From an uncultured Prevotellaceae bacterium (GTDB lineage: Bacteria > Bacteroidota > Bacteroidia > Bacteroidales > Bacteroidaceae): DNA of 52,191 nucleotides. The notes under the pieces were generated by a model. The model made no database searches. It saw only the letters and a program-made list of their open reading frames with translations, and had not been told where the DNA came from. The position numbers and the translations under genes are program-made. The stretch spans positions 1-52,191 of the forward strand of contig CALZKW010000001.1 in assembly GCA_945788095.1 (NCBI GenBank), in the 5' to 3' direction. Positions 1,108-52,191 of this stretch are shown one piece after another (the stretch's first letter is position 1; each line of letters starts with the position of its first letter).

Positions 1108-3990
1108 TTACTTCTTTATTACTTTGTTTCCATTAATGATATACACGCCCTTGCCCAGTCTCTGCCCTTCTGCATAGCGGCGGCCCGAGAGGTCGTAGAT
1201 GCCCTGGGGCACGATGCTGGGTGCTGTCACGCCATCGATGGCCGACCCACCCTCTCCACGAGAGAAGTCGCACACACGATTGCTCATCGTATTGAGGGCA
1301 CGCACATCGGTGGATGTCAGTTCGCGGCGGTATATGATGAGGTCGTCCACGCAGCAGTCAGCGCTGCCCCAGAAGGAGCCGAGTCCGAGATAGAAGTATC
1401 TGTAGGCAGTGAGCTGCTCCAGCAGTCTCTCCCACTCCACCGTCTTCGCCGTCGTTGCCCCCGATGCCGAGGCCACCGCATGAGCGGCCTTCTTCACGCC
1501 GTTGACATAGAGTGCCACACCATTTGTAGGGCCCACGGTGAGCGTCACCAGGGCCCACTTGCCCACGGGGATGTCTGTGTAGGTGCCGTTGTTGGGGTGA
1601 TTGATGTCAAACCACTTTCCGGCATTGTCATTGTAGCCCATGTAGGCATTGCCGGTGAGGTAGAAGCGTGAGCCCTGGGCTGCTGCCGATGTGGCATTGA
1701 AGAATCCCCACACAGCATCCCACACATTGTCATCCGTACGCTTCACCCACATCGAGACGGTCATGCCGTCGAGGTCTGTGATGCCCTTCAGGGGGTTGGG
1801 CATGCGGGTGTATGAATTGCTGCCCTGTGCTCCGAAGTTTTGGTGGAGCACCTTGCCGAATCGGCTATAGTCATCCTGCAGAGCGGGTTTGGTGCCTGTA
1901 GTGCCAAAGGTGGTCTTCTGCTCCCCGTCGTAGGCATTCTGACAGGGAGCCTCATCAAAATCATAGTAGGCCACGATGCCCGAGAGGTAGTCGCCGGCGG
2001 GGATGATTTCCTTCTGAGCCTTCACGTTGTAGGTCTGTTCCCAATAGTAGTCTCCCGAGGTGAGTCGTGCTGTGAGGGTGACAGGTTCGGCAGCGGTGAG
2101 ACCAGCGGGGTTATACTTGCCCGTCTCGCTGATGATGTCGGGGCGCGAGGAGGTCCACGTCAGCGTCGTGTTCTCCTCGGTAGGAAACATCAGGTTGATA
2201 TTGCTGCTGTATGTGTTGCCGTTCTTCACGGCTATCTCGTTGCTCTTGTAGTTGTAGGCCACGGCATAGGGGGCCTGCAGTTTGTATCCCCACACGCTCA
2301 CACCCGCCGTGCTCTGAGCTGTCAGGGCTATGGCTCCGAGCGAGGTGCGCTCCAGTCCCCTCTCAGTGGTGCCGCTCACGTGCTGCTCGCACCACACGCC
2401 ATAGTAGGTCGTCGCTCCCAGGCGTAGCGTCACGTATGCCGTGCCGTCCTTGGTGGTCCAGCTGCCGGTGTAGGCTCCCGTCACTCGTCCGTCCTCGGTG
2501 AGCGTCACCTCCACGGGAGTGCTCTCCTCAAAGTTGGCATGGTCCTGGCGATAGGGATGGAGCAGCAGGTGGTAGGTGCCCACTAACTGTTCGGTGGTCC
2601 AGGGGCATCCCTGTGCGATGTCAGCATCGGTCTGTGTCTCCCCGGCATAGGCAAAGGGAGCTGCCACGGGCCATCCCTTCTCGTTGAGGAAGAGTTGGTG
2701 TACGCGCACCTGATGCCATGCCGTGCCATTGTTCATCTTCGTGTGGTACACCACGAATGTGCGCCCCGCATTGTCCGTGCAGGCCGAGTTGTGACCCTGT
2801 GCACACACACCCACGGTCTGGTTGCCCCAGTGGTTGTAGGCACCCATCAGTTTCATGCCCGCATTGCTGCGCGAGTTGGGGCCGTAGTTGAGCACGTAGC
2901 TGGTGTATGTCGCTGCCGTGCCGCTGCCGTCTGTGTAGGGGCCCTCAGGCTTTTCGCTGCGGAAGACGCGCATCTCGTAGCCCCCATCGGGCGAGTAGAA
3001 CCCATCGCTCATGAAGAGGTAGTAGTGGTCTCCGATGTGCTGTATGTACGAACCCTCGCCGCTGACGTAGCATCCTCCGGCTATCTTACGTCCATAGTAG
3101 GGGTCGCTCACGCCGGCCATGCCCTTGGCGGCATAGTCGCTGGGGTAGGTGTAGGTATAGTCGCGCAGACCGGTCTGCTTGTCGAGCTTGAGCATGAAGA
3201 TACCGCCGCTCCACGATCCGTAGGCCATCCATAGTTCGCCCTCTTCGTCGTAGAACACGCAGGGGTCTATGCAGTTGGGCCAGTAGTTGCCCGTGTCCGT
3301 TCTTTTGTAGCGTGCAGGCATGGTGGTCTCGCCTGTGGCTATCTCATAGTCGGTGTCGGCTATCGTTGGTGCAGCCACGCCGTCGTAGGTCTGTCCGTTG
3401 AATCCTCCCATCACCACGGGGCCCTGGTAGGTGAATGGCCCTGTGGGCTGATTAGCGGTGAGCAGCACGATGATGCTGGCCCAGTGGTCACCGTTGAGGC
3501 TGATGTACATGCACCACTTCTGCATCTCTTTATTATAGATAATGTCGGGGGCCCACATATTGCCGTCCACCCACGCCTCGCGGTCTGCGGCATAACGGTT
3601 GGCATAGGCCTCGGCATCGATGTTGGGCATCGTCACCTCCTCGCCGCGGCAGTTCTTCACGCGCACCACCTGCTGCTTGTTGAAGGCCTCGCGATGGTTG
3701 CATGCCGTGCCTTGGCTGTCGCCCTGGGCCATCAGTTTCACAAAGGTGCTGCTACCCGCGCTCAGGGGGGTCCACGTCTGCAGGTCGCGGCTCTGTGCCA
3801 CGCCCAGGTGTGAGCCCCACACCGTGTACATGCCTCCACGCAGCACCACCGAGGGGTCGTGTATGCTCACCCCCGATGCCATTTGTGTGGTGTATAGATT
3901 GTTGATGTCGCTCAGCGACAGCTGTGTCTGTGCCTCTGTGGCGAGGCCCCATGCCGCAAAGGCCAGGATAGTTAGTATTGGTCGTTTCAT
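1108..3990 (-). CDS. Secreted GH43 glycoside hydrolase (arabinanase-like) with LamG-like domain and T9SS C-terminal sorting domain
   Basis: I chose the start at MKRPILTILAFAAWGLATEAQ (signal peptide; cat at 3988-3990) rather than the ORF-track start at 4281. GH43-type IHDPSVV motif. LamG/concanavalin-like region (MTVSMWVKRTDDNVWDAVWGFFN). C-terminal GIYDLSGRR...GVYIINGNKVIKK is typical of a T9SS CTD. Confidence 0.85.
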   Translation of the reverse strand: MKRPILTILAFAAWGLATEAQTQLSLSDINNLYTTQMASGVSIHDPSVVLRGGMYTVWGSHLGVAQSRDLQTWTPLSAGSSTFVKLMAQGDSQGTACNHREAFNKQQVVRVKNCRGEEVTMPNIDAEAYANRYAADREAWVDGNMWAPDIIYNKEMQKWCMYISLNGDHWASIIVLLTANQPTGPFTYQGPVVMGGFNGQTYDGVAAPTIADTDYEIATGETTMPARYKRTDTGNYWPNCIDPCVFYDEEGELWMAYGSWSGGIFMLKLDKQTGLRDYTYTYPSDYAAKGMAGVSDPYYGRKIAGGCYVSGEGSYIQHIGDHYYLFMSDGFYSPDGGYEMRVFRSEKPEGPYTDGSGTAATYTSYVLNYGPNSRSNAGMKLMGAYNHWGNQTVGVCAQGHNSACTDNAGRTFVVYHTKMNNGTAWHQVRVHQLFLNEKGWPVAAPFAYAGETQTDADIAQGCPWTTEQLVGTYHLLLHPYRQDHANFEESTPVEVTLTEDGRVTGAYTGSWTTKDGTAYVTLRLGATTYYGVWCEQHVSGTTERGLERTSLGAIALTAQSTAGVSVWGYKLQAPYAVAYNYKSNEIAVKNGNTYSSNINLMFPTEENTTLTWTSSRPDIISETGKYNPAGLTAAEPVTLTARLTSGDYYWEQTYNVKAQKEIIPAGDYLSGIVAYYDFDEAPCQNAYDGEQKTTFGTTGTKPALQDDYSRFGKVLHQNFGAQGSNSYTRMPNPLKGITDLDGMTVSMWVKRTDDNVWDAVWGFFNATSAAAQGSRFYLTGNAYMGYNDNAGKWFDINHPNNGTYTDIPVGKWALVTLTVGPTNGVALYVNGVKKAAHAVASASGATTAKTVEWERLLEQLTAYRYFYLGLGSFWGSADCCVDDLIIYRRELTSTDVRALNTMSNRVCDFSRGEGGSAIDGVTAPSIVPQGIYDLSGRRYAEGQRLGKGVYIINGNKVIKK

Positions 3991-4134: not shown

Positions 4135-4266
4135 GATAAAAGTCATTGTATCGGCAACCGAACAAGAAAAAACATTTGAGGTTTTGAGATTGTAGGAGGT
4201 GAACGACCATAGTCGATTGGGGGGTAGGGAGAATTCACATAGCACGCCCTGAAGGAGCGTGTTGCA

Positions 4267-4407
4267 GGGAGGAATGCCCAATCCTATCCAGGAGGAATGC
4301 CCAATCCTATCCGGGAGGAATGCCCAATCCTATCCGGGAGGAATGCCCAATCCTATCAGGGAGGAATGCCCAATCCTATCAGGGAGGAATGCCCAATCCT
4401 ATCCAGG
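4267..4407. repeat. Tandem repeat, 6 units of 23 bp (GGGAGGAATGCCCAATCCTATCC)
   Basis: AATGCCC recurs at 4273, 4296, 4319, 4342, 4365 and 4388, exactly 23 bp apart. Only the junction triplet varies (cca/ccg/cag). The array lies in the divergent GH43/GH29 intergenic region. Confidence 0.95.
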
Positions 4408-4585
4408 AGATTTCGAGTGATAGAATAAGATTTATCTGTCGGATGAACCTAAATGTCAATCCGAAGGATCTCCGTAGAATCAGGGGAGAGGAAAATAGTT
4501 TACTTTCTGAGGAGAGGGGACCTGTTCTCCCCCACCCTATGGATGAAGAAGCAGGGGAAATGTTGGCGGGATGGATTTTTTGGTT

Positions 4586-5919: not shown

Positions 5920-5925
5920 AGGAAT

Positions 5926-5986
5926 AAGACCAATTAGACCAATTAGGCCAATTAGGCTAATTAGACCAATCATACCAATTACGATT
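5926..5986 (+). repeat. 9-bp tandem array (TAGNCCAAT), about 6.5 units, filling the GH29-cutC spacer
   Basis: Reads AAGACCAAT TAGACCAAT TAGGCCAAT TAGGCTAAT TAGACCAAT CATACCAAT TACGATT, followed directly by the ATG at 5987. Confidence 0.95.
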
Positions 5987-6754
5987 ATGACTACACTCGA
6001 GATTTGTTGCGGCTCTCTGCAGAGCGTCAGAGCCGCCCACGAAGGTGGCGCCCAGCGCGTGGAGCTCTGCAGCGGCCTGAGCGAAGGTGGTGTGACACCC
6101 AGTCTGGGACTCCTGGTGGAGGCCCAGGCTATCGGCCTGCCCGTGCATGTGCTGATACGTCCGCGTGGGGGCGACTTTGTGTATTCACCCAGCGAGGTGA
6201 GAGCGATGTATACCGACATCATCATAGCCCGTCTGTATGGTGCCTCGGGCGTGGTGATAGGTGCACTCACCACGGATGGGGACGTCGATATGGAGGTATG
6301 CGAACAGTTGGTGGCGGCGACCAAGGCGCCGCTGGAGGACAACACGGGACTGCTGCGCCCTGAGTGCTCCATCACCTTCCACCGCGCCTTCGACCTCTGT
6401 CGCGATCCTCACAAGGCGCTGGCCGATATTAAGCAACTGGGCATCAACAGAGTGCTCACCTCGGGCCAGGCACAGACGGCGGAGAAGGGCATCGCCCTGC
6501 TGCGTCAACTGGTGGAGGAGGCCGGAGAGGACCTGAGCATCATGCCGGGCTGTGGCGTCAGCATCGACAATGTGCGCCGCATCATCGACGAGACAGGGGC
6601 CCACGAGATACACGCCTCGCTGCGCTCCCCCATCGAGAGCAACATGCTCTACCACAAGGAGGGTGTCAGCATGGGCACCCCCGGCAGCAACGAGTATGTG
6701 TGGCCCGAGACAGATCCGGAACTGGTGGAGAGAGCGGTTCGTCTTTTTATTTAA
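5987..6754 (+). CDS. cutC: Copper homeostasis protein CutC family
   Basis: 255 aa. N-terminus LEICCGSLQSVRAAHEGGAQRVELCSGLSEGGVTPS, plus FHRAFD and RVLTSG motifs typical of CutC. Confidence 0.9.
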   Translation: MTTLEICCGSLQSVRAAHEGGAQRVELCSGLSEGGVTPSLGLLVEAQAIGLPVHVLIRPRGGDFVYSPSEVRAMYTDIIIARLYGASGVVIGALTTDGDVDMEVCEQLVAATKAPLEDNTGLLRPECSITFHRAFDLCRDPHKALADIKQLGINRVLTSGQAQTAEKGIALLRQLVEEAGEDLSIMPGCGVSIDNVRRIIDETGAHEIHASLRSPIESNMLYHKEGVSMGTPGSNEYVWPETDPELVERAVRLFI

Positions 6755-9896: not shown

Positions 9897-9922
9897 TCAC
9901 TCATCATCATCCCCTGATACAG

Positions 9923-9955
9923 GCGCTGCACACTCCGGTGTGCGGCGCTTTTTTT
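9923..9955 (+). terminator. Intrinsic terminator
   Basis: Stem GCGCTGCACAC / GTGTGCGGCGC (one G-U pair) with loop tccg, then TTTTTTT. Confidence 0.85.
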
Positions 9956-10003
9956 GAGACTCTCCCCCCGCCCCCCAGAAGGGAGGGGGCCGAGGGCGAT
10001 TTT

Positions 10004-10096
10004 AGATATGGGTTTCATCGCCACAGGATATGGGTCTCAGCACCATCAGGATATGGGTCTTGTTGCGCTGAGATATGGGTCTTTTTCTGCTGAGAG
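10004..10096. repeat. Four-unit array, period 22-23 bp, core GATATGGGTCT plus variable spacer of about 11 nt
   Basis: ATATGGG occurs at 10006, 10028, 10051 and 10073. Confidence 0.9.
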
Positions 10097-10195
10097 GTGG
10101 GGGGCAAAGTGTTAGTGAATAGTGAATAATACTTAATACCTTTAATACTGGTAATGTAGAGGAGAAAGCACATAGCACGCCCCAACAAGCCATTC

Positions 10196-10590
10196 ACGGC
10201 CATTTTCAGCACGGAAACATACTGTTGTAGGCCTACAACGGCCATTTTCAGCACGGAAAAATGCTGTTGTAGGCCTACGACGACGATTTTCTGCACGAAA
10301 AATGCTGTTGTAGGCCTACAACGACGATTTTCTGCACGGAAACATATTGTTGTAGGCCTACAATGACGATTTTCAGTGGAGAAACATATCGTCGTAGGCC
10401 TACAACGACGATTTTCAGTGGAGAAACATATCGTCGTAGGCCTACAACGACGATTTTCGGTGGAGAAACATATCGTCGTAGGCCTACAACGACGATTTTC
10501 GGTGGAGAAACATATCGTCGTAGGCCTACAACGACGATTTTCGGTGGAGAAACATATCGTCGTAGGCCTACAACGGACATTTTCGGTATT
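10196..10590. repeat. 42-bp tandem array, about 9.5 units, each unit carrying an AGGCCT-centred palindrome
   Basis: AGGCCT occurs at 10229, 10271, 10312, 10354, 10396, 10438, 10480, 10522 and 10564. Unit sequence is GATTTTCGGTGGAGAAACATATCGTCGTAGGCCTACAACGAC. Units 1, 3 and 4 carry the perfect 16-bp palindrome GTTGTAGGCCTACAAC; unit 2 has one mismatch. Confidence 0.95.
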
Positions 10591-10743
10591 GCGTTAAGGA
10601 ACATAGCATGTCTCAGCGGGGCATATATGGTCTGGCTGCGCAGGTTGTATAGTCCTTATAACTTCCTTTTAACTTCTTTTCAAAAAAAAGCCACGCACCG
10701 AGGGGAGAGTGCGTGGCTATTCGTATGTGGGAGGGGGAAGTAC

Positions 10744-13242
10744 TTAGAGTTTCTTGATGACGTCGAGTAGTTGCTGGCCGAGGCCGATGGTGTAGCCCTG
10801 GCGGCACCAGAGGACGCGGTTGAAGGTGTCGGCTATCAGGAAGACGGGCATGGTGGGGGCCGTGAGATACATGTTGGTCCATATCTCCTGGCGTATCTTG
10901 CCGTCGACGTCGGTACCGAAAACGAGGTTGCGGGGGAGATTGCGGAACTCATCGCGGTTGGTGAAGCGGGCCATCTCAGCCTCGCTCTCGAAGAGGAGCA
11001 CCAGCGAACGACCCCACTGCTCGAGTTGGGCGGCCACAGCGGCTATATCGCGCAGAGCGTGGTTGGTGGGCTCCTGACCGGGAGCGATAAGGCCCACCAC
11101 GTAGTAGCCGCGGCCTGTGATGGAGAGCAACGAACGGATGTCGCCCTGCTCGGTGCGGTAGAGATTCTCGCTGTTGAAACTACCTATCACCGTCACCTCC
11201 TCCTGCGAGGTGCGCATGGTGAGGTCAGCCGTGGTGGTCTCACCCTCGCGGATGGGCAGGAAGTCCATGTGGGCCAAGACGCCGCCATTGGCCAGACGTG
11301 TGCCGCTGACGAGCATGTACTGACCGGTGTCGAGTGTCTGTCCGGAGTCGAAGAGATTGCGCCAGGTGGCACTGCCGTCCTCGGGATAGGTGAGCGACAC
11401 GGGGGTGCCGTCCTGCATCTGGGCCAGGGTGAACTGGTAGTAGTAGCCCGGCGAATGGGCCGTGGTGGTGGGGGTGGCAGAGCGCAGGATGCCCTTGGGA
11501 CTGCCTGCCTGGTGCTCGCTGCCGCCGAAGTGTATGTCCGTCCACTGACCCTGGTCGTAGACCTGCACCTTGCCCGTCACCTCGTCGATGCGGCTGGCGA
11601 TGCCCATGGTGCGGGCCACAGAGACAAAGAAGATGTTGCGCGAGTGGCTATCGGTGCGGCGCACCTGCCACACGCTGCGCGGACTCATGCAGAGGGCCTG
11701 CGGATTGCGGCTCTCGTCGATGGTCACATGCTCGGCCACCCATGCCACCCACTGGCGGTAGTCGCTGCGGCAGGAGGCAATGAAATCGGGGGAGAGCTCG
11801 GTGAGGAAGTACTGCTTGTAGGGCGTGAGCATCTCGTTGCTGACGCGGGGATTGAGCACATAGCGGGCCCAGAGGCTCCGCGGATTGGCCTCGCCCGAGA
11901 GATTGGCCGAGACAGGACGACTGGAGAAGAGATAATGATCGGTCAGTACGTCGAGCGTGACATCGCGGAGGTCCTTCTCGGAGATGACATGCAGCAGCGT
12001 CATGGCCATCTGTTCGTCGTTGACACCGGTGAGGAACTGCTTGATGACATTGTAGTTGCCCCAGCTCTGCTCCACGGCCCAGTTGTCGCGGCGGAAGGTG
12101 GCCTCGTAGGCCGTGCGGATAGAGTCCTCGTACACCAGACGGCGCTGGTTCGCCTCGCGCTGGGCATCGGTGACGGGGGGCATATTGTTGCGCTCGGGGG
12201 GAGGCATCAGGTCGAAGTCCACCTGTCCGCAGTAGGAGACGTCCTTGTCGAGACATACCTCGATGGTGTCCTGGCGGCCCATGCTGCACTTGGCAAACCC
12301 AAACTGCGCCTCTGCTCCCCTACCCCGGCTGGCCCACACCATGATGTCGCCTAAGCCGGAAGAGAAATGCGTCAGGCCGTCCTTGTCCGACTGGCGGGAG
12401 GCGAGGGTGAAGTACTCGGCATAGTTGTAGAGGCGGAAGGAGACGGTGGCGGGCACGGGGCGTCCCTCCCTGTCCACGGTGCGCACCGTGACGGATGCCG
12501 TGGGGGCATAGTTGGCGGTGACGTCTATCTCGGTGAAGCAGGGTGTCTGGCGCATCACGGTCTCGGGACCGTCGTAGCGGCCAAACACCTTGGTGTGCAT
12601 CAGCATGGCTCGCGATGCGGGGGCATTAAACCATCCGAGATTCAACACCGGTTCGGGTTCGCAGGCTCCGAGGAAGCACCATCGGCCATCGACCCAGGCC
12701 TCCACCCAGGCGTGATTGTCGTCGGTGTGTGCCCAGCGGGGGGTATAGACCTGGCGGGCGGGGATGCCCACCGAGCGCAGCGCAGCCACACAGAAGGTGC
12801 TCTCCTCGCCACAGCGTCCCTTGGCATTGCGCATGGTGGCCAGCGGGGCCGAGGTACGGGCATCGCTGGGGGTGTAGGTAACGTGCTCATGACACCAGTG
12901 GTTGACCTCGAGCACGGCTTCGGCCATGCTGAGATGGCGTACACGGCCGCGCAAGGCCTCATAGAAGACGATGCGGGCCTCATCGAGATTCTCATTGTTG
13001 ACTCGAACGGGCAATACGAAGTGGCACCACTCGCGCTCGGGCACCGTCTTGCCCCAGGGCATCTCCTGGCGGGCCTTCATGCTGCAGGCCACATTGCGCT
13101 CCCAGAAGTCGCGGCTGTAGTCGGCACTGTCGGGCAAGGGCATATACTGATAGAGGAAGTCGACGGCCTCGGCCTCACTCGTGGTCTGCGCCTGGGCCGG
13201 CAGAGCGGCGCCGAGGGCAAGAACAAGAAGTAGTCTTTTCAT
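10744..13242 (-). CDS. Secreted transglutaminase-like cysteine protease-fold protein with C-terminal thioredoxin-like domain
   Basis: 832 aa with signal peptide MKRLLLVLALGAALPAQAQ. Transglutaminase core (GRCGEESTFCVAALRSVGIPARQVYTPRWAHTDDNHAWVEAW). The C-terminal section resembles AhpC/TSA-like folds. Confidence 0.85.
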   Translation of the reverse strand: MKRLLLVLALGAALPAQAQTTSEAEAVDFLYQYMPLPDSADYSRDFWERNVACSMKARQEMPWGKTVPEREWCHFVLPVRVNNENLDEARIVFYEALRGRVRHLSMAEAVLEVNHWCHEHVTYTPSDARTSAPLATMRNAKGRCGEESTFCVAALRSVGIPARQVYTPRWAHTDDNHAWVEAWVDGRWCFLGACEPEPVLNLGWFNAPASRAMLMHTKVFGRYDGPETVMRQTPCFTEIDVTANYAPTASVTVRTVDREGRPVPATVSFRLYNYAEYFTLASRQSDKDGLTHFSSGLGDIMVWASRGRGAEAQFGFAKCSMGRQDTIEVCLDKDVSYCGQVDFDLMPPPERNNMPPVTDAQREANQRRLVYEDSIRTAYEATFRRDNWAVEQSWGNYNVIKQFLTGVNDEQMAMTLLHVISEKDLRDVTLDVLTDHYLFSSRPVSANLSGEANPRSLWARYVLNPRVSNEMLTPYKQYFLTELSPDFIASCRSDYRQWVAWVAEHVTIDESRNPQALCMSPRSVWQVRRTDSHSRNIFFVSVARTMGIASRIDEVTGKVQVYDQGQWTDIHFGGSEHQAGSPKGILRSATPTTTAHSPGYYYQFTLAQMQDGTPVSLTYPEDGSATWRNLFDSGQTLDTGQYMLVSGTRLANGGVLAHMDFLPIREGETTTADLTMRTSQEEVTVIGSFNSENLYRTEQGDIRSLLSITGRGYYVVGLIAPGQEPTNHALRDIAAVAAQLEQWGRSLVLLFESEAEMARFTNRDEFRNLPRNLVFGTDVDGKIRQEIWTNMYLTAPTMPVFLIADTFNRVLWCRQGYTIGLGQQLLDVIKKL

Positions 13243-13305
13243 TGGGTTTATTGGGCTTATTGGGCTAATTGGACTAATTGGACTAATTGGGCTAATCCGG
13301 CTAAC
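13243..13305 (-). repeat. 9-bp tandem array (sense TAGNCCAAT), 7 units, filling the tex-transglutaminase spacer
   Basis: Plus strand reads TGGGTTTAT TGGGCTTAT TGGGCTAAT TGGACTAAT TGGACTAAT TGGGCTAAT CCGGCTAAC. Confidence 0.95.
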
Positions 13306-19041: not shown

Positions 19042-19090
19042 TTAACAACGGAAAGAACAGAATTATATCTTTCTGTTTGTTCCGTTGTTA
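19042..19090 (-). terminator. Long hairpin of the AACAACGGAACAAACAGAA family, downstream of glnN
   Basis: TTAACAACGGAAAGAACAGAA / TTCTGTTTGTTCCGTTGTTA, a stem of about 20 bp with 2 mismatches. There is no clear U-tract. Confidence 0.5.
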
Positions 19091-19144: not shown

Positions 19145-21337
<2,193 letters not shown>

Positions 21338-21357: not shown

Positions 21358-21393
21358 TTGGGCTAATTGGACCAATTGGATTAATTGGACTAA
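21358..21393 (-). repeat. 9-bp tandem array (sense TAGNCCAAT), 4 units, in the aguB-glnN spacer
   Basis: Plus strand reads TTGGGCTAA TTGGACCAA TTGGATTAA TTGGACTAA. The last unit overlaps the aguB stop codon. Confidence 0.9.
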
Positions 21394-22265
21394 TCAATGA
21401 ATCGCTTGGTGAGACCACCGAACTCCTCGATGCGACGGTCGCGCAGGAAGGGCCACCAGCGGCGCACATTCTCGCTGCGCTGCATGTCGACCTCGACCAC
21501 CACGTTCTCCTCCTTGTCCTTGGAGGCGCGGTAGAGCACCTCGCCCTGGGGACCGGCTACAAACGAACTGCCCCAGAACTGTATGCCGTTGGTCTGACCG
21601 CTGGGGTCGGGCTCGTGGCCTACCCTGTTGACAGCAATGACGGGCAGACCATTGGCCACAGCATGGCCGCGCTGCACGGTGGTCCATGCCTCGCGCTGGC
21701 GCTCCTGCTCCTCGGGGGTGTCGCTGCTCTCATAGCCGATGGCGGTGGGATAGATGAGCAGTTCGGCTCCCTGCAGGGCCATGAGGCGCGCTCCCTCGGG
21801 ATACCACTGGTCCCAGCACACCTGCACGCCGAGACGGCCCAGAGAGGTCTGGATGGGGTGGAAACCGAGATCGCCGGGGGTGAAATAGAACTTCTCGTAG
21901 TAGGCGGGATCGTCGGGGATGTGCATCTTGCGATACTTGCCGGCTATGCTGCCATCAGTGTCGAAGACCACGGCGGTGTTGTGGTAGAGGCCTGCTGCAC
22001 GACGCTCGAAGAGGGAGGTAACGAGCACTATGCCATACATGCGGGCTATCGTGCTGTAGAAGTCGGTGCTGGGACCGGGGATGGGCTCAGCCAGATTGCA
22101 GAGGTCGACATTCTCTGTCTGACAGAAGTACAGACTGTTGTGGAGCTCCTGCAGCACCACGAGCTGGGCGCCCTGCTTCACCACGTCGGCTATGTTGTTG
22201 GCCAGTTTCTCTTTGTTTTGCTGCACATCAGCCGTGCAGCTCTGCTGGATGATTCCTATTTTCAT
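21390..22265 (-). CDS. aguB: N-carbamoylputrescine amidase (carbon-nitrogen hydrolase family)
   Basis: 291 aa. LVVLQELH, CWDQWYPE and the adjacency to agmatine deiminase support the call. Confidence 0.88.
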   Translation of the reverse strand: MKIGIIQQSCTADVQQNKEKLANNIADVVKQGAQLVVLQELHNSLYFCQTENVDLCNLAEPIPGPSTDFYSTIARMYGIVLVTSLFERRAAGLYHNTAVVFDTDGSIAGKYRKMHIPDDPAYYEKFYFTPGDLGFHPIQTSLGRLGVQVCWDQWYPEGARLMALQGAELLIYPTAIGYESSDTPEEQERQREAWTTVQRGHAVANGLPVIAVNRVGHEPDPSGQTNGIQFWGSSFVAGPQGEVLYRASKDKEENVVVEVDMQRSENVRRWWPFLRDRRIEEFGGLTKRFID

Positions 22266-23493: not shown

Positions 23494-23538
23494 ATTGGGC
23501 TTATTAGGCTAATTGGGCTAATTGGGCTAATCCCTAAA
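23494..23538 (-). repeat. 9-bp tandem array (sense TAGNCCAAT), about 5 units, in the GH125-aguA spacer
   Basis: Plus strand reads ATTGGGCTT ATTAGGCTA ATTGGGCTA ATTGGGCTA ATCCCTAAA. It is flanked on both sides by CCTAAAA-type heptamers. Confidence 0.9.
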
Positions 23539-25000: not shown

Positions 25001-25081
25001 ATTGGGCTAATTGGGCTAATAAGACTAATTGGGCCTATTGGGCTAATAAGACTAATTGGGCTAATCGGGCCTATCATGCTA
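25001..25081 (-). repeat. 9-bp tandem array (sense TAGCCCAAT), 9 units with 27-bp higher-order periodicity, filling the GH92-GH125 spacer
   Basis: Plus strand reads ATTGGGCTA ATTGGGCTA ATAAGACTA / ATTGGGCCT ATTGGGCTA ATAAGACTA / ATTGGGCTA ATCGGGCCT ATCATGCTA. Confidence 0.95.
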
Positions 25082-27650: not shown

Positions 27651-27779
27651 ACTGTCCGGGGAAATCAAGACCCTGTAAGAGTCGCTATAGAGTAGCGTAG
27701 GGCGTCAACCCTACGTATGGCACTACCCCCTATCCTTTGGCCCTGTAAGGGCCTCCTAACTAATACGTCATGAAAATAT
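27651..27779 (+). repeat. Structured dispersed element R of about 130 nt, copy 1 (candidate ncRNA or MITE)
   Basis: Closely similar to 33382-33512, with only scattered substitutions and small indels. Hairpins: GACCC-tgtaa-GAGTC (27669-27683), CGTAGGG-cgtcaa-CCCTACG (27696-27715), GGCCC-tgtaa-GGGCC (27739-27753). Confidence 0.8.
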
Positions 27780-29600: not shown

Positions 29601-29645
29601 GTCAACAGAATGAACGGAGTTTTTTCTGTTTGTTCCGTTGTTAAC
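29601..29645 (-). terminator. Imperfect hairpin of the AACAACGGAACAAACAGAA family, downstream of the POT transporter gene
   Basis: CAACAGAATGAACGGAG / TTCTGTTTGTTCCGTTGTTAA. The pairing is imperfect. Confidence 0.35.
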
Positions 29646-33213: not shown

Positions 33214-33381
33214 TGGGGGCGGCGAAGCAAAGTTCACATAGCACGCCCCGCGCTCGGCATCCCGAAGGCAAAATTGGGCTATGAACTGCTGCCCCTTCGG
33301 GGCGTATTAGAGTCTATTTTTCTTTATTGATGATTTTTCTACCCCCCTACCTTTTTAGTTATCCCCCCACCTTATATTATT

Positions 33382-33512
33382 ACTGTCCGGGGAAATCAAG
33401 ACCCAGTAAGGGTCGCTATAGATTAGCGTAGGGCGTCAACCCTACGTATGGCATTGCCCCCCCTATCCTTTGGCCCTGTAAGGGCCTCCTGACTAATACG
33501 TTATGAAAATAT
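33382..33512 (+). repeat. Structured dispersed element R, copy 2
   Basis: Same orientation as copy 1. Hairpin 1 is perfect here (GACCC-agtaa-GGGTC). Confidence 0.8.
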
Positions 33513-50329: not shown

Positions 50330-50704
50330 ATGAACACACTCACCATTAGTACATACAAGAGCGACAACATCACCCCATCAGGCGAGACCATCATCATCAG
50401 CGAGAAGGAAATAGGCAAATGCCGCGGATGCCTGCGCTGCCGCATACTCAAGCAATGCATCAGCTACAAGGACGATGCACAGGAGTGCATACCCCTGCTA
50501 CTCGCTGCCGACCACCTCGACATCTACCTCCAGCCCGCCAGCACCATACAGCTCCTCATGGACCGCGTGCTCTATGCCCTGGCCGGACAGGGAGAGGGCA
50601 AGACCTTCACCTTCCACATCGAGGACGGCACCGAGGCCGAATACCTCCGCAACCTCCTGACATGGTGTAAATACAAGGAGACTCTCCCCCCGCCCTCCCT
50701 ATAG
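50330..50704 (+). CDS. Flavodoxin-like / iron-sulfur flavoprotein-like protein, possibly truncated
   Basis: 124 aa from MNTLTISTYK. The C-x2-C-x2-C...C...DD pattern (GKCRGCLRCRILKQCISYKDD) and AADHLDIY resemble NADPH-dependent FMN reductase-type proteins. It is shorter than the typical length, and the last 9 codons lie in dispersed element E. Confidence 0.5.
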   Translation: MNTLTISTYKSDNITPSGETIIISEKEIGKCRGCLRCRILKQCISYKDDAQECIPLLLAADHLDIYLQPASTIQLLMDRVLYALAGQGEGKTFTFHIEDGTEAEYLRNLLTWCKYKETLPPPSL

Positions 50705-51991: not shown

Positions 51992-52092
51992 AAGACCCGG
52001 GTCCTACACCCTACAGGACCCGGGTCTTGTCGTAGTAATACCCGGGTCCTGTCGCGTCAAGACCCGGGTCTTTTTGCAAAGATACCCGGGGG
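51992..52092. repeat. Five-unit array, period 22-23 bp, palindromic core (G)ACCCGGGTC
   Basis: ACCCGGG occurs at 51995, 52018, 52040, 52062 and 52084. The unit layout and parts of the spacers resemble the 10004-10096 array. Confidence 0.9.
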
Positions 52093-52191
52093 CTTTTAGC
52101 ATTCTGGGTGAAAAGAGAAAAACGAAAAGTAATTGTAAAGAAACCCTCATGACATAATTTGTAGTCGCCAAAGTTCATGAAAAGGGTTGAC

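What the first reader, a model, noticed from the sequence alone, without database searches (positions are those of the whole stretch)
10196..10590. 42-bp tandem array of nine AGGCCT-centred palindromes with sopC-like centromere/iteron architecture
Nine AGGCCT cores lie at 10229, 10271, 10312, 10354, 10396, 10438, 10480, 10522 and 10564 (spacing 42, 41, then 42 throughout). Each core sits in a 16-20 bp palindrome: a perfect GTTGTAGGCCTACAAC in units 1, 3 and 4 (unit 2 has one mismatch), and TCGTCGTAGGCCTACAACGA with one mismatch in units 5-9. Units 7-9 are identical. Units 5-6 differ from them by one base (cag versus cgg). Units 1-4 are progressively more diverged, so the array shows a polar divergence gradient consistent with growth at one end. 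A 42-bp period is four helical turns, so every palindrome would face the same side of the DNA. Plasmid F sopC is the closest known architecture: 12 tandem 43-bp repeats, each with an inverted repeat bound by SopB. There is no parAB, rep or mobile-element gene in this window, and the array sits between convergent chromosomal genes. As RNA it would form nine or ten consecutive hairpins.
Basis: partly seen in the sequence, partly recalled or inferred. Interest (0 to 1): 0.8.

Follow-up and report, generated by a model that had tools for sequence, protein, structure and literature searches.

The report
Palindrome-cored 42-bp minisatellite, REP-like
The nine 42-bp palindromic repeats are real, but they are most likely one copy of a scattered, fast-changing non-coding repeat family of gut Bacteroidales, not a plasmid-style centromere or replication origin.

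Summary
Nine exact GTAGGCCTAC cores lie at 10227-10571 with 42/41-bp spacing, in a 730-bp spacer between two convergent chromosomal genes that each have their own terminator. The sopC/iteron reading is not supported. The window has no par, rep or mobile-element gene, no DnaA box and no parS. Plasmid, phage and viral collections gave no match. The array belongs to a wider family. In about 20 genomes, mostly Bacteroidales, and in metagenomes, arrays keep a GTAG-SS-CTAC core and a strict 41-42-bp period while the spacers differ. They sit in intergenic DNA next to unrelated genes, at up to 11-13 loci per genome. Cores vary 2.4-fold less than spacers within arrays. Unit content and copy number differ between strains, and short-read assemblies break in the arrays. 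Each core-to-core 52-mer reads GTAG, a GC-footed hairpin, then CTAC. That is the "double-foot" REP layout described for RAYT subclass 2.4. The closest organisational parallels are the P. gingivalis MITEPgRS (41-nt) and BrickBuilt (23-nt) minisatellites. No trans-acting protein was identified: no RAYT lies near any of the roughly 80 array loci examined. Verdict: a new variant of a known kind, of moderate interest.

The parts
10211..10587 (.). Nine tandem 42-bp units (unit 2 is 41 bp). Each is centred on an exact GTAGGCCTAC core, at 10227, 10269, 10310, 10352, 10394, 10436, 10478, 10520 and 10562.
   Evidence: Per-column diversity is 0 in the core and 0.19 in the spacer.
10195..10210 (.). Half unit without a core (CACGGCCATTTTCAGC). 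It is the decayed left edge of the array.
   Evidence: it matches the right half of unit 1.
10478..10529 (-). Example of the core-to-core 52-nt 'double-foot' hairpin: GTAG, a 16-bp stem with a GCC foot, a 3x3 internal loop, a 4-bp stem, a hexaloop, then CTAC. Consecutive hairpins overlap by the 10-bp core.
   Evidence: -29.9 kcal/mol with z -8.9 on the minus strand, and -25.5 kcal/mol with z -5.7 on the plus strand. The core-centred 42-mer reaches only -12.5 kcal/mol.
10163..10183 (+). Leader motif GAGAAAGCACATAGCACGCCC just upstream of the array. The 13-mer CACATAGCACGCC recurs exactly at 4236 (before a 23-bp array) and at 33235.
10588..10625 (+). Tail with a decayed unit-like stretch (AAGGAACATAGCATGTCTCAGCGG), before unique spacer DNA.
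   Evidence: This rests on visual similarity to the unit start and to the leader motif, so it is an inference.
10005..10095 (+). Four 22-bp direct repeats (GATATGGGTCT...), followed by an AT-rich stretch at 10110-10160. They lie in the same intergenic block. Whether they belong to the same element is uncertain.
   Evidence: A related 22-bp array with a GACCCGGGTC palindrome lies at 51996-52095.
9921..9955 (+). Intrinsic terminator of the upstream 977-aa gene. It marks the left boundary of the intergenic block.
10682..10718 (-). Intrinsic terminator of the downstream transglutaminase-like gene. It marks the right boundary of the intergenic block.

Best explanation
The array is a REP/BIME-like palindromic minisatellite. 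It is one locus of a dispersed, non-coding repeat family found mainly in Bacteroidales. The family is defined by a GTAG-SS-CTAC core repeated every 41-42 bp.

Shown: the core and the period are conserved across genera, while the spacers diverge. The core is under stronger constraint than the spacer. The arrays are intergenic and lie beside unrelated genes. Unit content and copy number differ between strains.

Inferred: units are gained, lost and homogenised in place by replication slippage or unequal recombination between the 42-bp units. The identical units 6-8 would then be the most recent expansion. Each core-to-core 52-mer folds as GTAG, a GC-footed hairpin, then CTAC, which is a 'double-foot' REP, and neighbouring units share the 10-bp core. 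The core is probably kept because a protein encoded elsewhere recognises it. The best candidate is a HUH-Y1 RAYT-type nuclease acting on hairpins in single-stranded DNA. Such an enzyme would also explain the dispersal and the patchy distribution across phyla.

At this locus the array has no centromere or origin role. At most it acts as a hairpin- or cruciform-prone spacer between two convergent, already terminated genes.
For: Family and constraint:
- The genome scan found 44 loci in about 20 genomes, mostly Bacteroidales. Periods were 41-42 bp, or multiples where a core has decayed, and none fell at 36-40, 43-46 or 49-50 although 36-50 was allowed.
- The metagenome scan found 24 more loci.
- Core variants keep GTAG/CTAC and change mostly the central dinucleotide.
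- Core diversity is 0.09 against 0.22 for spacers in 33 arrays, p = 7e-6.

Dispersal:
- Two MAGs carry 11 and 13 loci, with leader and tail sequences conserved between copies.
- Neighbouring genes are unrelated and no family recurs except DUF5128/DUF6261.
- Arrays occur in tandem, convergent and divergent intergenic settings.

Instability:
- Three other pig-gut assemblies carry this same array, and their contigs end inside it. One has a different third unit.
- A related array has 4 units in one strain and 5 in another.
- A relative whose transglutaminase is 57% identical lacks both the array and the adjacent 977-aa gene.

REP likeness:
- The 52-nt GTAG-hairpin-CTAC fold reaches -29.9 kcal/mol with z -8.9.
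- The literature describes GTAG-tagged REPs, tandem REP clusters, and 'double foot' REPs with a basal stem of three G-C pairs for RAYT subclass 2.4. That subclass is abundant in Bacteroidetes and scattered over other phyla (PMC3733652, PMC6006769).

Organisational precedent:
- P. gingivalis has 41-, 23- and 22-nt intergenic minisatellites in MITEPgRS and BrickBuilt (PMC2575886, PMC4596501).
- This window holds 42-, 23- and 22-bp arrays, and the 42-bp and 23-bp arrays share a leader motif.
Against: - No RAYT or Y1 gene lies in the window or in any of about 80 array loci. The motif scan used was validated on eight true RAYT loci. Pfam on 120 neighbouring ORFs found no transposase family among the recurrent families.
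- Flavobacteriaceae RAYT genes that I could fetch are flanked by different repeats.
- Across the family, complementarity beyond the core is significant only at the first two flanking positions. Spacer self-folding is weak, with mean z -1.2. The long hairpin is therefore a feature of this window, not of the family.
- REP biology does not explain a strict 41-42-bp ruler.
- Only one such array lies in this 52-kb window, with no singleton cores. Dispersal within this genome is untested.
- Ascertainment (I required 2-3 exact cores) inflates the apparent core conservation.
Confidence: 0.55

Rival explanations
1. The array is a phased platform on double-stranded DNA for a dimeric DNA-binding protein encoded elsewhere. 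Each 10-20-bp palindrome would be one dimer site, and the four-turn spacing would put all sites on one face of the helix. The role could be centromere-like, nucleoid-organising, or an upstream regulatory array.
For: The 41-42-bp period is strict across genera, with 21-bp and 23-24-bp sub-periods in two lineages. The conserved part is a 10-14-bp palindrome with consensus CYTTY-GTAGGCCTAC-RAARG, and conservation is weakest at the central dinucleotide, as expected for dimer sites. Several arrays sit 50-140 nt upstream of start codons. In five or more lineages the downstream gene is a DUF6261 gene whose protein is only 24-55% identical between lineages.
Against: The window holds no par, rep or HTH partner gene, and no parS or DnaA box. 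This array lies between convergent genes, downstream of both terminators, with no promoter to regulate. There are 11-13 loci per genome next to unrelated genes. DUF6261 is a helical bundle with no DNA-binding fold and no PDB match. There is no plasmid or phage context.
Confidence: 0.2
2. The array is a neutral satellite. It would be a hairpin-prone unit amplified by slippage, with no trans-acting factor. The shared core would reflect common descent, horizontal spread of one old element, and my search bias.
For: Strains differ in unit content and copy number. A relative lacks the array. Some metagenome hits look eukaryotic or coincidental, such as L065 and L074. The searches required exact cores.
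Against: Cores not required by the search are also conserved, and the core is 2.4-fold less variable than spacers within arrays. Spacers in different genera show no detectable similarity, yet they keep the same 10-mer and the same period. No period outside 41-42 bp or its halves was found in a 36-50-bp search range.
Confidence: 0.15
3. The array is a transcribed non-coding RNA: a string of nine or ten hairpins. It would act as an RNA stabiliser, a terminator or insulator, or a precursor of small RNAs.
For: The fold is strong, with z -15.8 for the array. The unit hairpin is more stable on the minus strand through G-U pairs. The consensus scan calls terminator-like hairpins on the minus strand. 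The BrickBuilt elements of P. gingivalis have promoter activity (PMC4596501).
Against: No Rfam family matches here or in 13 related loci. Both flanking genes already have canonical terminators before the array. Periods mix 41 and 42 bp, and pairing beyond the core does not covary across the family. The palindromic core gives no strand preference.
Confidence: 0.07

Closest known systems
GTAG-tagged REP/BIME repeats, in particular the 'double foot' REPs associated with RAYT (TnpA-REP) subclass 2.4 (PMC3733652, PMC6006769)
   Same: A GTAG tetranucleotide sits directly 5' of a hairpin whose foot is G+C-rich (GCC...GGC), with CTAC at the 3' end. The repeats are extragenic, tend to form tandem clusters, diversify within a lineage, and occur in Bacteroidetes plus scattered other phyla.
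   Different: Here the two feet abut (GTAG-GC-CTAC) and are shared by neighbouring units. The conserved part is the foot pair, not the hairpin body. The period is fixed at 41-42 bp. No RAYT gene was found near any array, and canonical REPs are 20-40-nt hairpins scattered as singletons or dimers.
Porphyromonas gingivalis MITEPgRS (MITE464), with 41-nt tandem 'Repeat C', and BrickBuilt, with a 23-nt minisatellite (PMC2575886, PMC4596501)
   Same: These are Bacteroidales intergenic elements whose body is a spacer-free minisatellite of 41 or 23 nt with variable copy number. Copies share leader and tail segments, and there are 10-20 copies per genome. This window also holds 42-, 23- and 22-bp arrays, two of which share a leader motif. 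The Dysgonomonadaceae and Paraprevotella MAGs show the same leader-array-tail layout.
   Different: No IS5-type terminal inverted repeats or target-site duplication bound the window's block. Sequence relatedness to Repeat C could not be tested, because that sequence is only in a figure. P. gingivalis was not among the genomes with two exact GTAGGCCTAC cores.
Plasmid F sopC centromere (12 x 43 bp, each unit with the SopB-binding inverted repeat)
   Same: The units are tandem and about 42-43 bp long, each has an inverted repeat, and there are no variable spacers. The phasing is about four helical turns.
   Different: There is no sopAB/parAB partner and the context is chromosomal housekeeping genes. 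There is no plasmid or phage match, and the palindrome is unrelated. In other genomes the family occurs at many loci.
Plasmid iterons and origins
   Same: The adjacent 22-bp x 4 direct repeats followed by an AT-rich stretch (10005-10160) look iteron-like.
   Different: There is no rep gene and no DnaA box. A related 22-bp array sits in another intergenic region of the same window (51996-52095).

Membership tests
sopC-type (type Ia) partition centromere | Tandem units of about 43 bp, each with an inverted repeat | tested here: met
   Nine 42-bp units, each with a 16-20-bp palindrome.
sopC-type (type Ia) partition centromere | Cognate parA/parB (sopAB) operon next to the array | tested here: not met
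   Pfam on 31 window ORFs shows glycoside hydrolases, Tex, glutamine synthetase, ETF and similar families. No ParA or ParB appeared among the families listed. None recurred among 120 ORFs next to related arrays.
sopC-type (type Ia) partition centromere | Carried on a plasmid or prophage replicon, at one locus per replicon | tested here: not met
   There was no match in 72,556 plasmids, 50,697 phages or IMG/VR. Two MAGs carry 11-13 loci each.
sopC-type (type Ia) partition centromere | Bound and spread over by a ParB-family protein | not testable with these tools
   This needs ChIP, DAP-seq or EMSA.
Iteron-type replication origin | Direct repeats of 17-22 bp next to a rep gene, with DnaA boxes and an AT-rich unwinding element | tested here: not met
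   The 22-bp x 4 repeats and an AT-rich stretch exist at 10005-10160. There is no rep gene. No DnaA box with one mismatch or fewer lies between 9900 and 10750.
GTAG-type REP / BIME | GTAG (or GTGG) 0-2 nt 5' of a hairpin with a fully paired, G+C-rich basal stem | tested here: met
   The sequence reads GTAG|GCCTAC...GTAGGC|CTAC. On the minus strand it forms a 16-bp basal stem at -29.9 kcal/mol with z -8.9. Criteria are those of PMC6006769.
GTAG-type REP / BIME | Many extragenic copies dispersed in the same genome | tested here: inconclusive
   This 52-kb window holds one array and no singleton cores. Other genomes have up to 11-13 loci. The rest of this genome is not available.
GTAG-type REP / BIME | A cognate RAYT (Y1 HUH) gene in the genome, itself flanked by the repeats | not testable with these tools
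   No RAYT lies in the window or in about 80 array loci. Whole genomes could not be searched. The Flavobacteriaceae RAYT loci I fetched carry other repeats.
MITEPgRS / BrickBuilt minisatellite MITEs | Intergenic element whose body is a spacer-free tandem repeat of 41 or 23 nt with variable copy number | tested here: met
   Descriptions are in PMC2575886 and PMC4596501.
MITEPgRS / BrickBuilt minisatellite MITEs | Leader and tail segments shared between copies | tested here: inconclusive
   The motif GAGAAnnCACATAGCACGCCC is shared by the 42-bp array, the 23-bp array and a third site. No longer shared flank was found in the window. Shared flanks are clear in two other MAGs.
MITEPgRS / BrickBuilt minisatellite MITEs | IS5-type terminal inverted repeats (GAGAC...) and a cognate IS | tested here: not met
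   The only inverted matches at the block ends (9940-9970 and 10683-10710) are two non-collinear matches at chance level inside the terminators. No transposase lies in the window.
MITEPgRS / BrickBuilt minisatellite MITEs | Sequence homology to the P. gingivalis repeat units | not tested
   The Repeat C sequence is only in a figure, and no supplement is held as text.
CRISPR array | Repeats separated by unique spacers, with cas genes nearby | tested here: not met
   The stretches between cores are near-identical within the array. No cas family appeared among those listed.

The most novel reading that the evidence does not exclude
GTAG-SS-CTAC arrays with a fixed 41-42-bp phase could be a previously undescribed class of chromosomal element spanning several phyla. 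They would be serviced by a dedicated, still unidentified protein. That protein could be a RAYT-like single-strand nuclease with a built-in ruler that lays down overlapping double-foot units. Alternatively it could be a double-stranded-DNA binder that coats one face of the helix, making these arrays a chromosomal counterpart of sopC-type arrays. Some copies may have been recruited as upstream regulatory arrays, for example before DUF6261 genes in Parabacteroides.
Probability: 0.2. Interest if true: 0.7.

Novelty: new variant of a known kind. Interest (0 to 1): 0.45.

Why it matters
If the reading is right, gut Bacteroidales and a few other phyla carry a REP-like repeat family that has escaped description, partly because short-read assemblies break in it. 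The family has an unusually simple signature: a 10-bp palindrome every four helical turns. That signature makes the responsible protein findable by co-occurrence analysis or pull-down. The arrays are also practical strain markers, because copy number and unit content vary between strains. They mark sites where metagenome assemblies fragment. For this particular locus, the main result is that it should not be annotated as a centromere or an origin.

Tried and rejected
- Plasmid, phage and viral origin: there was no BLAST match for 9960-10690 in PLSDB or INPHARED, and no core pair in IMG/VR.
- Known RNA: no Rfam family matched at gathering or E-value thresholds, here or in 13 related loci.
- Origin or centromere: there are no DnaA boxes or parS.
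- Same 42-mer elsewhere: a window-specific 23-mer found nothing in JGI metagenomes.
- MITE with terminal inverted repeats: the end matches at 9940-9970 and 10683-10710 are non-collinear and at chance level.
- RAYT link: I recalled a Bacteroidetes Y1 transposase, which was confirmed as a real RayT family at 78% identity. I fetched eight loci, and their flanking repeats are unrelated to GTAG-SS-CTAC. No Y1 motif lies in any array locus.
- DUF6261 as the binding partner: arrays lie upstream of these genes in five or more lineages. The protein is a helical bundle (pLDDT 84.5) with no PDB sequence or fold match and no HTH, and it has no NCBIfam or PHROG annotation.
- Coding repeat: ORFs run through the array. 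However, 41- and 42-bp units are mixed, and the ORFs run into the terminators and the opposite gene, so this was rejected.
- Synteny: the nearest relatives with usable contigs are only 57% identical and lack the region, so there is no fine-scale conservation test.
- P. gingivalis Repeat C sequence: it is not available in text.

Full report
**1. The observation.**
GTAGGCCTAC occurs nine times in the 52-kb window, all between 10227 and 10571. Shuffles expect 0.04 matches. TRF reports a 42-bp period, 8.9 copies and 90% matches at 10214-10587. Start-to-start spacing is 42, 41, then 42 six times. Aligned in register, units 6-8 are identical. Unit 5 differs by one base, unit 9 by three, and units 1-4 by 5-12 of 42. 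A core-less half unit precedes unit 1. The core never varies, while spacer columns have a mean diversity of 0.19. The "polar gradient" is real but imperfect, because the last unit is also diverged.

**2. The setting.**
The array lies in a 730-bp spacer between a 977-aa CHB_HEX_C/DUF5013 protein gene (+, ends 9896) and an 832-aa transglutaminase-like gene (-, ends 10744). Each gene has its own canonical terminator, at 9921-9955 and 10682-10718. The rest of the window is ordinary Bacteroidales chromosome: GH43, GH92, GH125, fucosidase, CutC, Tex, type III glutamine synthetase, ETF and acyl-CoA dehydrogenase. No Par, Rep, transposase or Cas family appeared among those reported. No DnaA box lies in the spacer, and the window has no parS. 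The same spacer also holds four 22-bp direct repeats (10005-10095) and an AT-rich stretch. Just before the array lies the motif GAGAAAGCACATAGCACGCCC. Its 13-mer core recurs exactly at 4236, directly before a 23-bp x 6 array, and at 33235.

**3. Population and relatives.**
The two flanking proteins are found with identical sequence in other pig-gut metagenome assemblies. In every case the contig ends inside the array, from either side. The sequences agree with the window, with two exceptions: one sample has a different third unit, and a 99%-identical strain restores a perfect palindrome in the last unit. The next relatives of the transglutaminase are 70% identical (a 2.8-kb contig) and 57% identical. 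In the 57% relative the gene abuts CutC and fucosidase directly, with neither the 977-aa gene nor the array. The array is therefore lineage-specific, polymorphic, and a cause of assembly breaks.

**4. A wider family.**
There is no match in plasmids, phages or viral contigs. I scanned one genome per GTDB species for two exact cores 36-50 bp apart. This returned 44 loci in about 20 genomes:
- Bacteroidota: Parabacteroides, Paraprevotella, Dysgonomonadaceae, Alistipes, Odoribacteraceae, Prevotella, Hoylesella, Flavobacterium and Draconibacterium.
- Other phyla: a Calditrichaeota MAG, a deltaproteobacterial MAG and a Pedosphaera MAG.

Allowing degenerate cores, nearly all are arrays of 3-9 units with a 41 or 42 bp period, or 83 and 124-125 bp where a core has decayed. 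The Calditrichaeota arrays have a 21-bp period and the Paraprevotella elements 23-24 bp. No period of 36-40, 43-46 or 49-50 bp appeared. A metagenome scan for three cores added 24 loci. A few of these, such as L065 and L074, look eukaryotic and may be coincidental satellites.

Spacers differ completely between genera. Core variants keep GTAG and CTAC and change mainly the central dinucleotide, giving GTAGGGCTAC, GTAGCCCTAC and GTAGGGGTAC. The flanks tend towards CYTTY-core-RAARG. Within 33 arrays the core is 2.4-fold less variable than the spacer, p = 7e-6. My searches required exact cores, so part of this contrast is ascertainment.

**5. Genomic behaviour of the family.**
In the Dysgonomonadaceae MAG (11 loci) and the Paraprevotella MAG (13 loci) the arrays sit inside 0.5-0.8-kb non-coding elements. 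Their leader and tail sequences are conserved between copies. All arrays are intergenic, in tandem, convergent and divergent settings alike. Pfam on 120 neighbouring ORFs found housekeeping and glycan-utilisation genes and no recurrent transposase, integrase or ParB.

One recurrent neighbour did appear. In Parabacteroides and a termite-gut lineage a DUF6261 gene starts 50-130 nt downstream of an array, although the proteins are only 24-28% identical. Close homologues confirm this, with 4 units in one strain and 5 in another. A 55%-identical group has a 41-bp-period array with a different palindrome, CTTTCCGATGCTTCGGAAA, at the same place. DUF6261 is an all-helical bundle (pLDDT 84.5) with no sequence or fold match in the PDB and no DNA-binding motif. 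I therefore do not regard it as the binding partner. Other genes with an array upstream are unrelated to one another: an AraC/TPR regulator, GH92, carA, peptidase M3 and ThiI.

**6. Structure.**
As a single strand the whole array folds far better than shuffles, z -15.8. The stable unit is not the core-centred hairpin (-12.5 kcal/mol). It is the core-to-core 52-mer: GTAG, a stem beginning GCC, an internal loop, a short stem and hexaloop, then CTAC. This reaches -29.9 kcal/mol with z -8.9 on the minus strand, and -25.5 kcal/mol on the plus strand. Consecutive 52-mers overlap by the 10-bp core. Across the family, however, complementarity beyond the core exceeds the null only at the first two flanking positions. 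Spacer self-folding is modest, with mean z -1.2. The family-wide constants are the 10-14-bp palindrome and the phase. The long stem is a local elaboration.

**7. Comparison with what is known.**

*(a) REPs.* GTAG-tagged palindromes are known to form tandem clusters (PMC3733652). RAYT subclass 2.4 is abundant in Bacteroidetes and Cyanobacteria and scattered in other phyla. It is associated with "double foot" REPs, which have 5' GT[AG]G and 3' C[TC]AC around a hairpin whose base is three G-C pairs (PMC6006769). The window's 52-mer fits that description. It departs from it in three ways: the feet abut and are shared, the period is fixed, and no RAYT is at hand. No Y1 motif occurs in the window or in about 80 array loci. 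The scan was validated on eight real RayT loci, whose own flanking repeats are unrelated.

*(b) P. gingivalis minisatellites.* P. gingivalis carries intergenic minisatellite elements. MITEPgRS has up to 14 tandem 41-nt repeats between repetitive flanks, and BrickBuilt has 23-nt repeats with a leader and a tail. Minisatellites of 41, 23 and 22 nt were noted in strain W83 (PMC2575886, PMC4596501). This window has 42-, 23- and 22-bp arrays, two of which share a leader motif. That is the same organisation. I found no IS5-type terminal repeats, and I could not compare sequences.

*(c) sopC and iterons.* Only the geometry matches. The defining partners are absent.

A literature search found no paper with this 10-mer in a bacterial context, and no description of 41/42-bp tandem repeats in Bacteroidetes beyond the above.

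**8. Conclusion.**
The array is best explained as a REP/BIME-like, MITEPgRS-like palindromic minisatellite. It is maintained and resized by slippage or unequal exchange. Its GTAG-SS-CTAC core is conserved, probably because an unidentified trans-acting protein recognises it. A RAYT-type nuclease is the leading candidate, and a double-stranded-DNA-binding dimer is the main rival. A centromere or origin function at this locus is not supported. The family signature, a 10-bp palindrome every four helical turns across several phyla, appears undescribed and is moderately interesting. The window's copy itself is an ordinary member of that family.

Noticed in passing
window 5923-5981 (+), 13241-13304, 21358-21394, 23494-23531, 25001-25070: There are tandem 9-nt repeats whose sense-strand unit is TAG(C/A)CCAAT, in 4-8 copies. 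They lie 0-52 nt upstream of the start codons of five different genes: CutC at 5987, the transglutaminase-like gene at 13242, and the genes starting at 21337, 23442 and 25000. They look like a recurrent 5'-leader feature of this genome. The 23-bp repeat at 4267-4409 contains the same ATTGGGC heptamer.
   Followed up: partly
window 4267-4409 and 4230-4250: A 23-bp x 6.2 tandem array (GGGAGGAATGCCCAATCCTATCC) lies between divergent genes. It is preceded by the same leader motif (GAGAATTCACATAGCACGCCC) as the 42-bp array. A third exact copy of CACATAGCACGCC lies at 33235.
   Followed up: partly
window 10005-10095 and 51996-52095: There are two 22-bp-period arrays. The one at the window end is built on a 10-bp palindrome, GACCCGGGTC, repeated every 22-23 bp. 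This is the same 'palindrome plus fixed phase' style at half the period.
   Followed up: partly
window 27651-27757 and 33382-33490: A non-coding element of about 110 nt is present twice, with exact blocks of 23, 30 and 32 nt. The copy at 33399-33446 (-) passes the Rfam gathering score for Acido-Lenti-1 RNA (40.9 bits).
   Followed up: no
window 9956-9973 and 50678-50695; also 1037-1058, 19070-19090, 29623-29644: Short exact intergenic repeats occur at these sites. GAGACTCTCCCCCCGCCC occurs twice and TTTCTGTTTGTTCCGTTGTTA three times. Other C-rich or GACAACGGAC motifs recur in spacers.
   Followed up: no
L042 2868-4145; L035 6862-8000; L023 7086-7998; L078 1186-2270; L085-L089: DUF6261 (PF19775) genes of Parabacteroides and relatives carry a 41-42-bp-period palindromic array 50-130 nt upstream of the start codon. 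This holds although the proteins are only 24-55% identical and one lineage uses a different palindrome. Unit number differs between strains (4 versus 5). DUF5128/DUF4934 beta-propeller genes are frequent neighbours.
   Followed up: yes
L053-L058 (upstream of the RayT gene, about 2500-3000) and L052 2830-2870 / 3620-3650: RayT genes of Flavobacteriaceae are flanked by their own repeats. These are tandem units of about 95 bp in L053, and GCTAGCGCGAGCGTC...hairpins in Aquimarina. Many RayT contigs in public assemblies are only about 1 kb long, which suggests assembly breaks at those repeats.
   Followed up: partly
L043 6091-6164 (-): A FopS-family sRNA (Rfam RF04319, 77.6 bits) lies about 700 nt from one Dysgonomonadaceae array element.
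   Followed up: no
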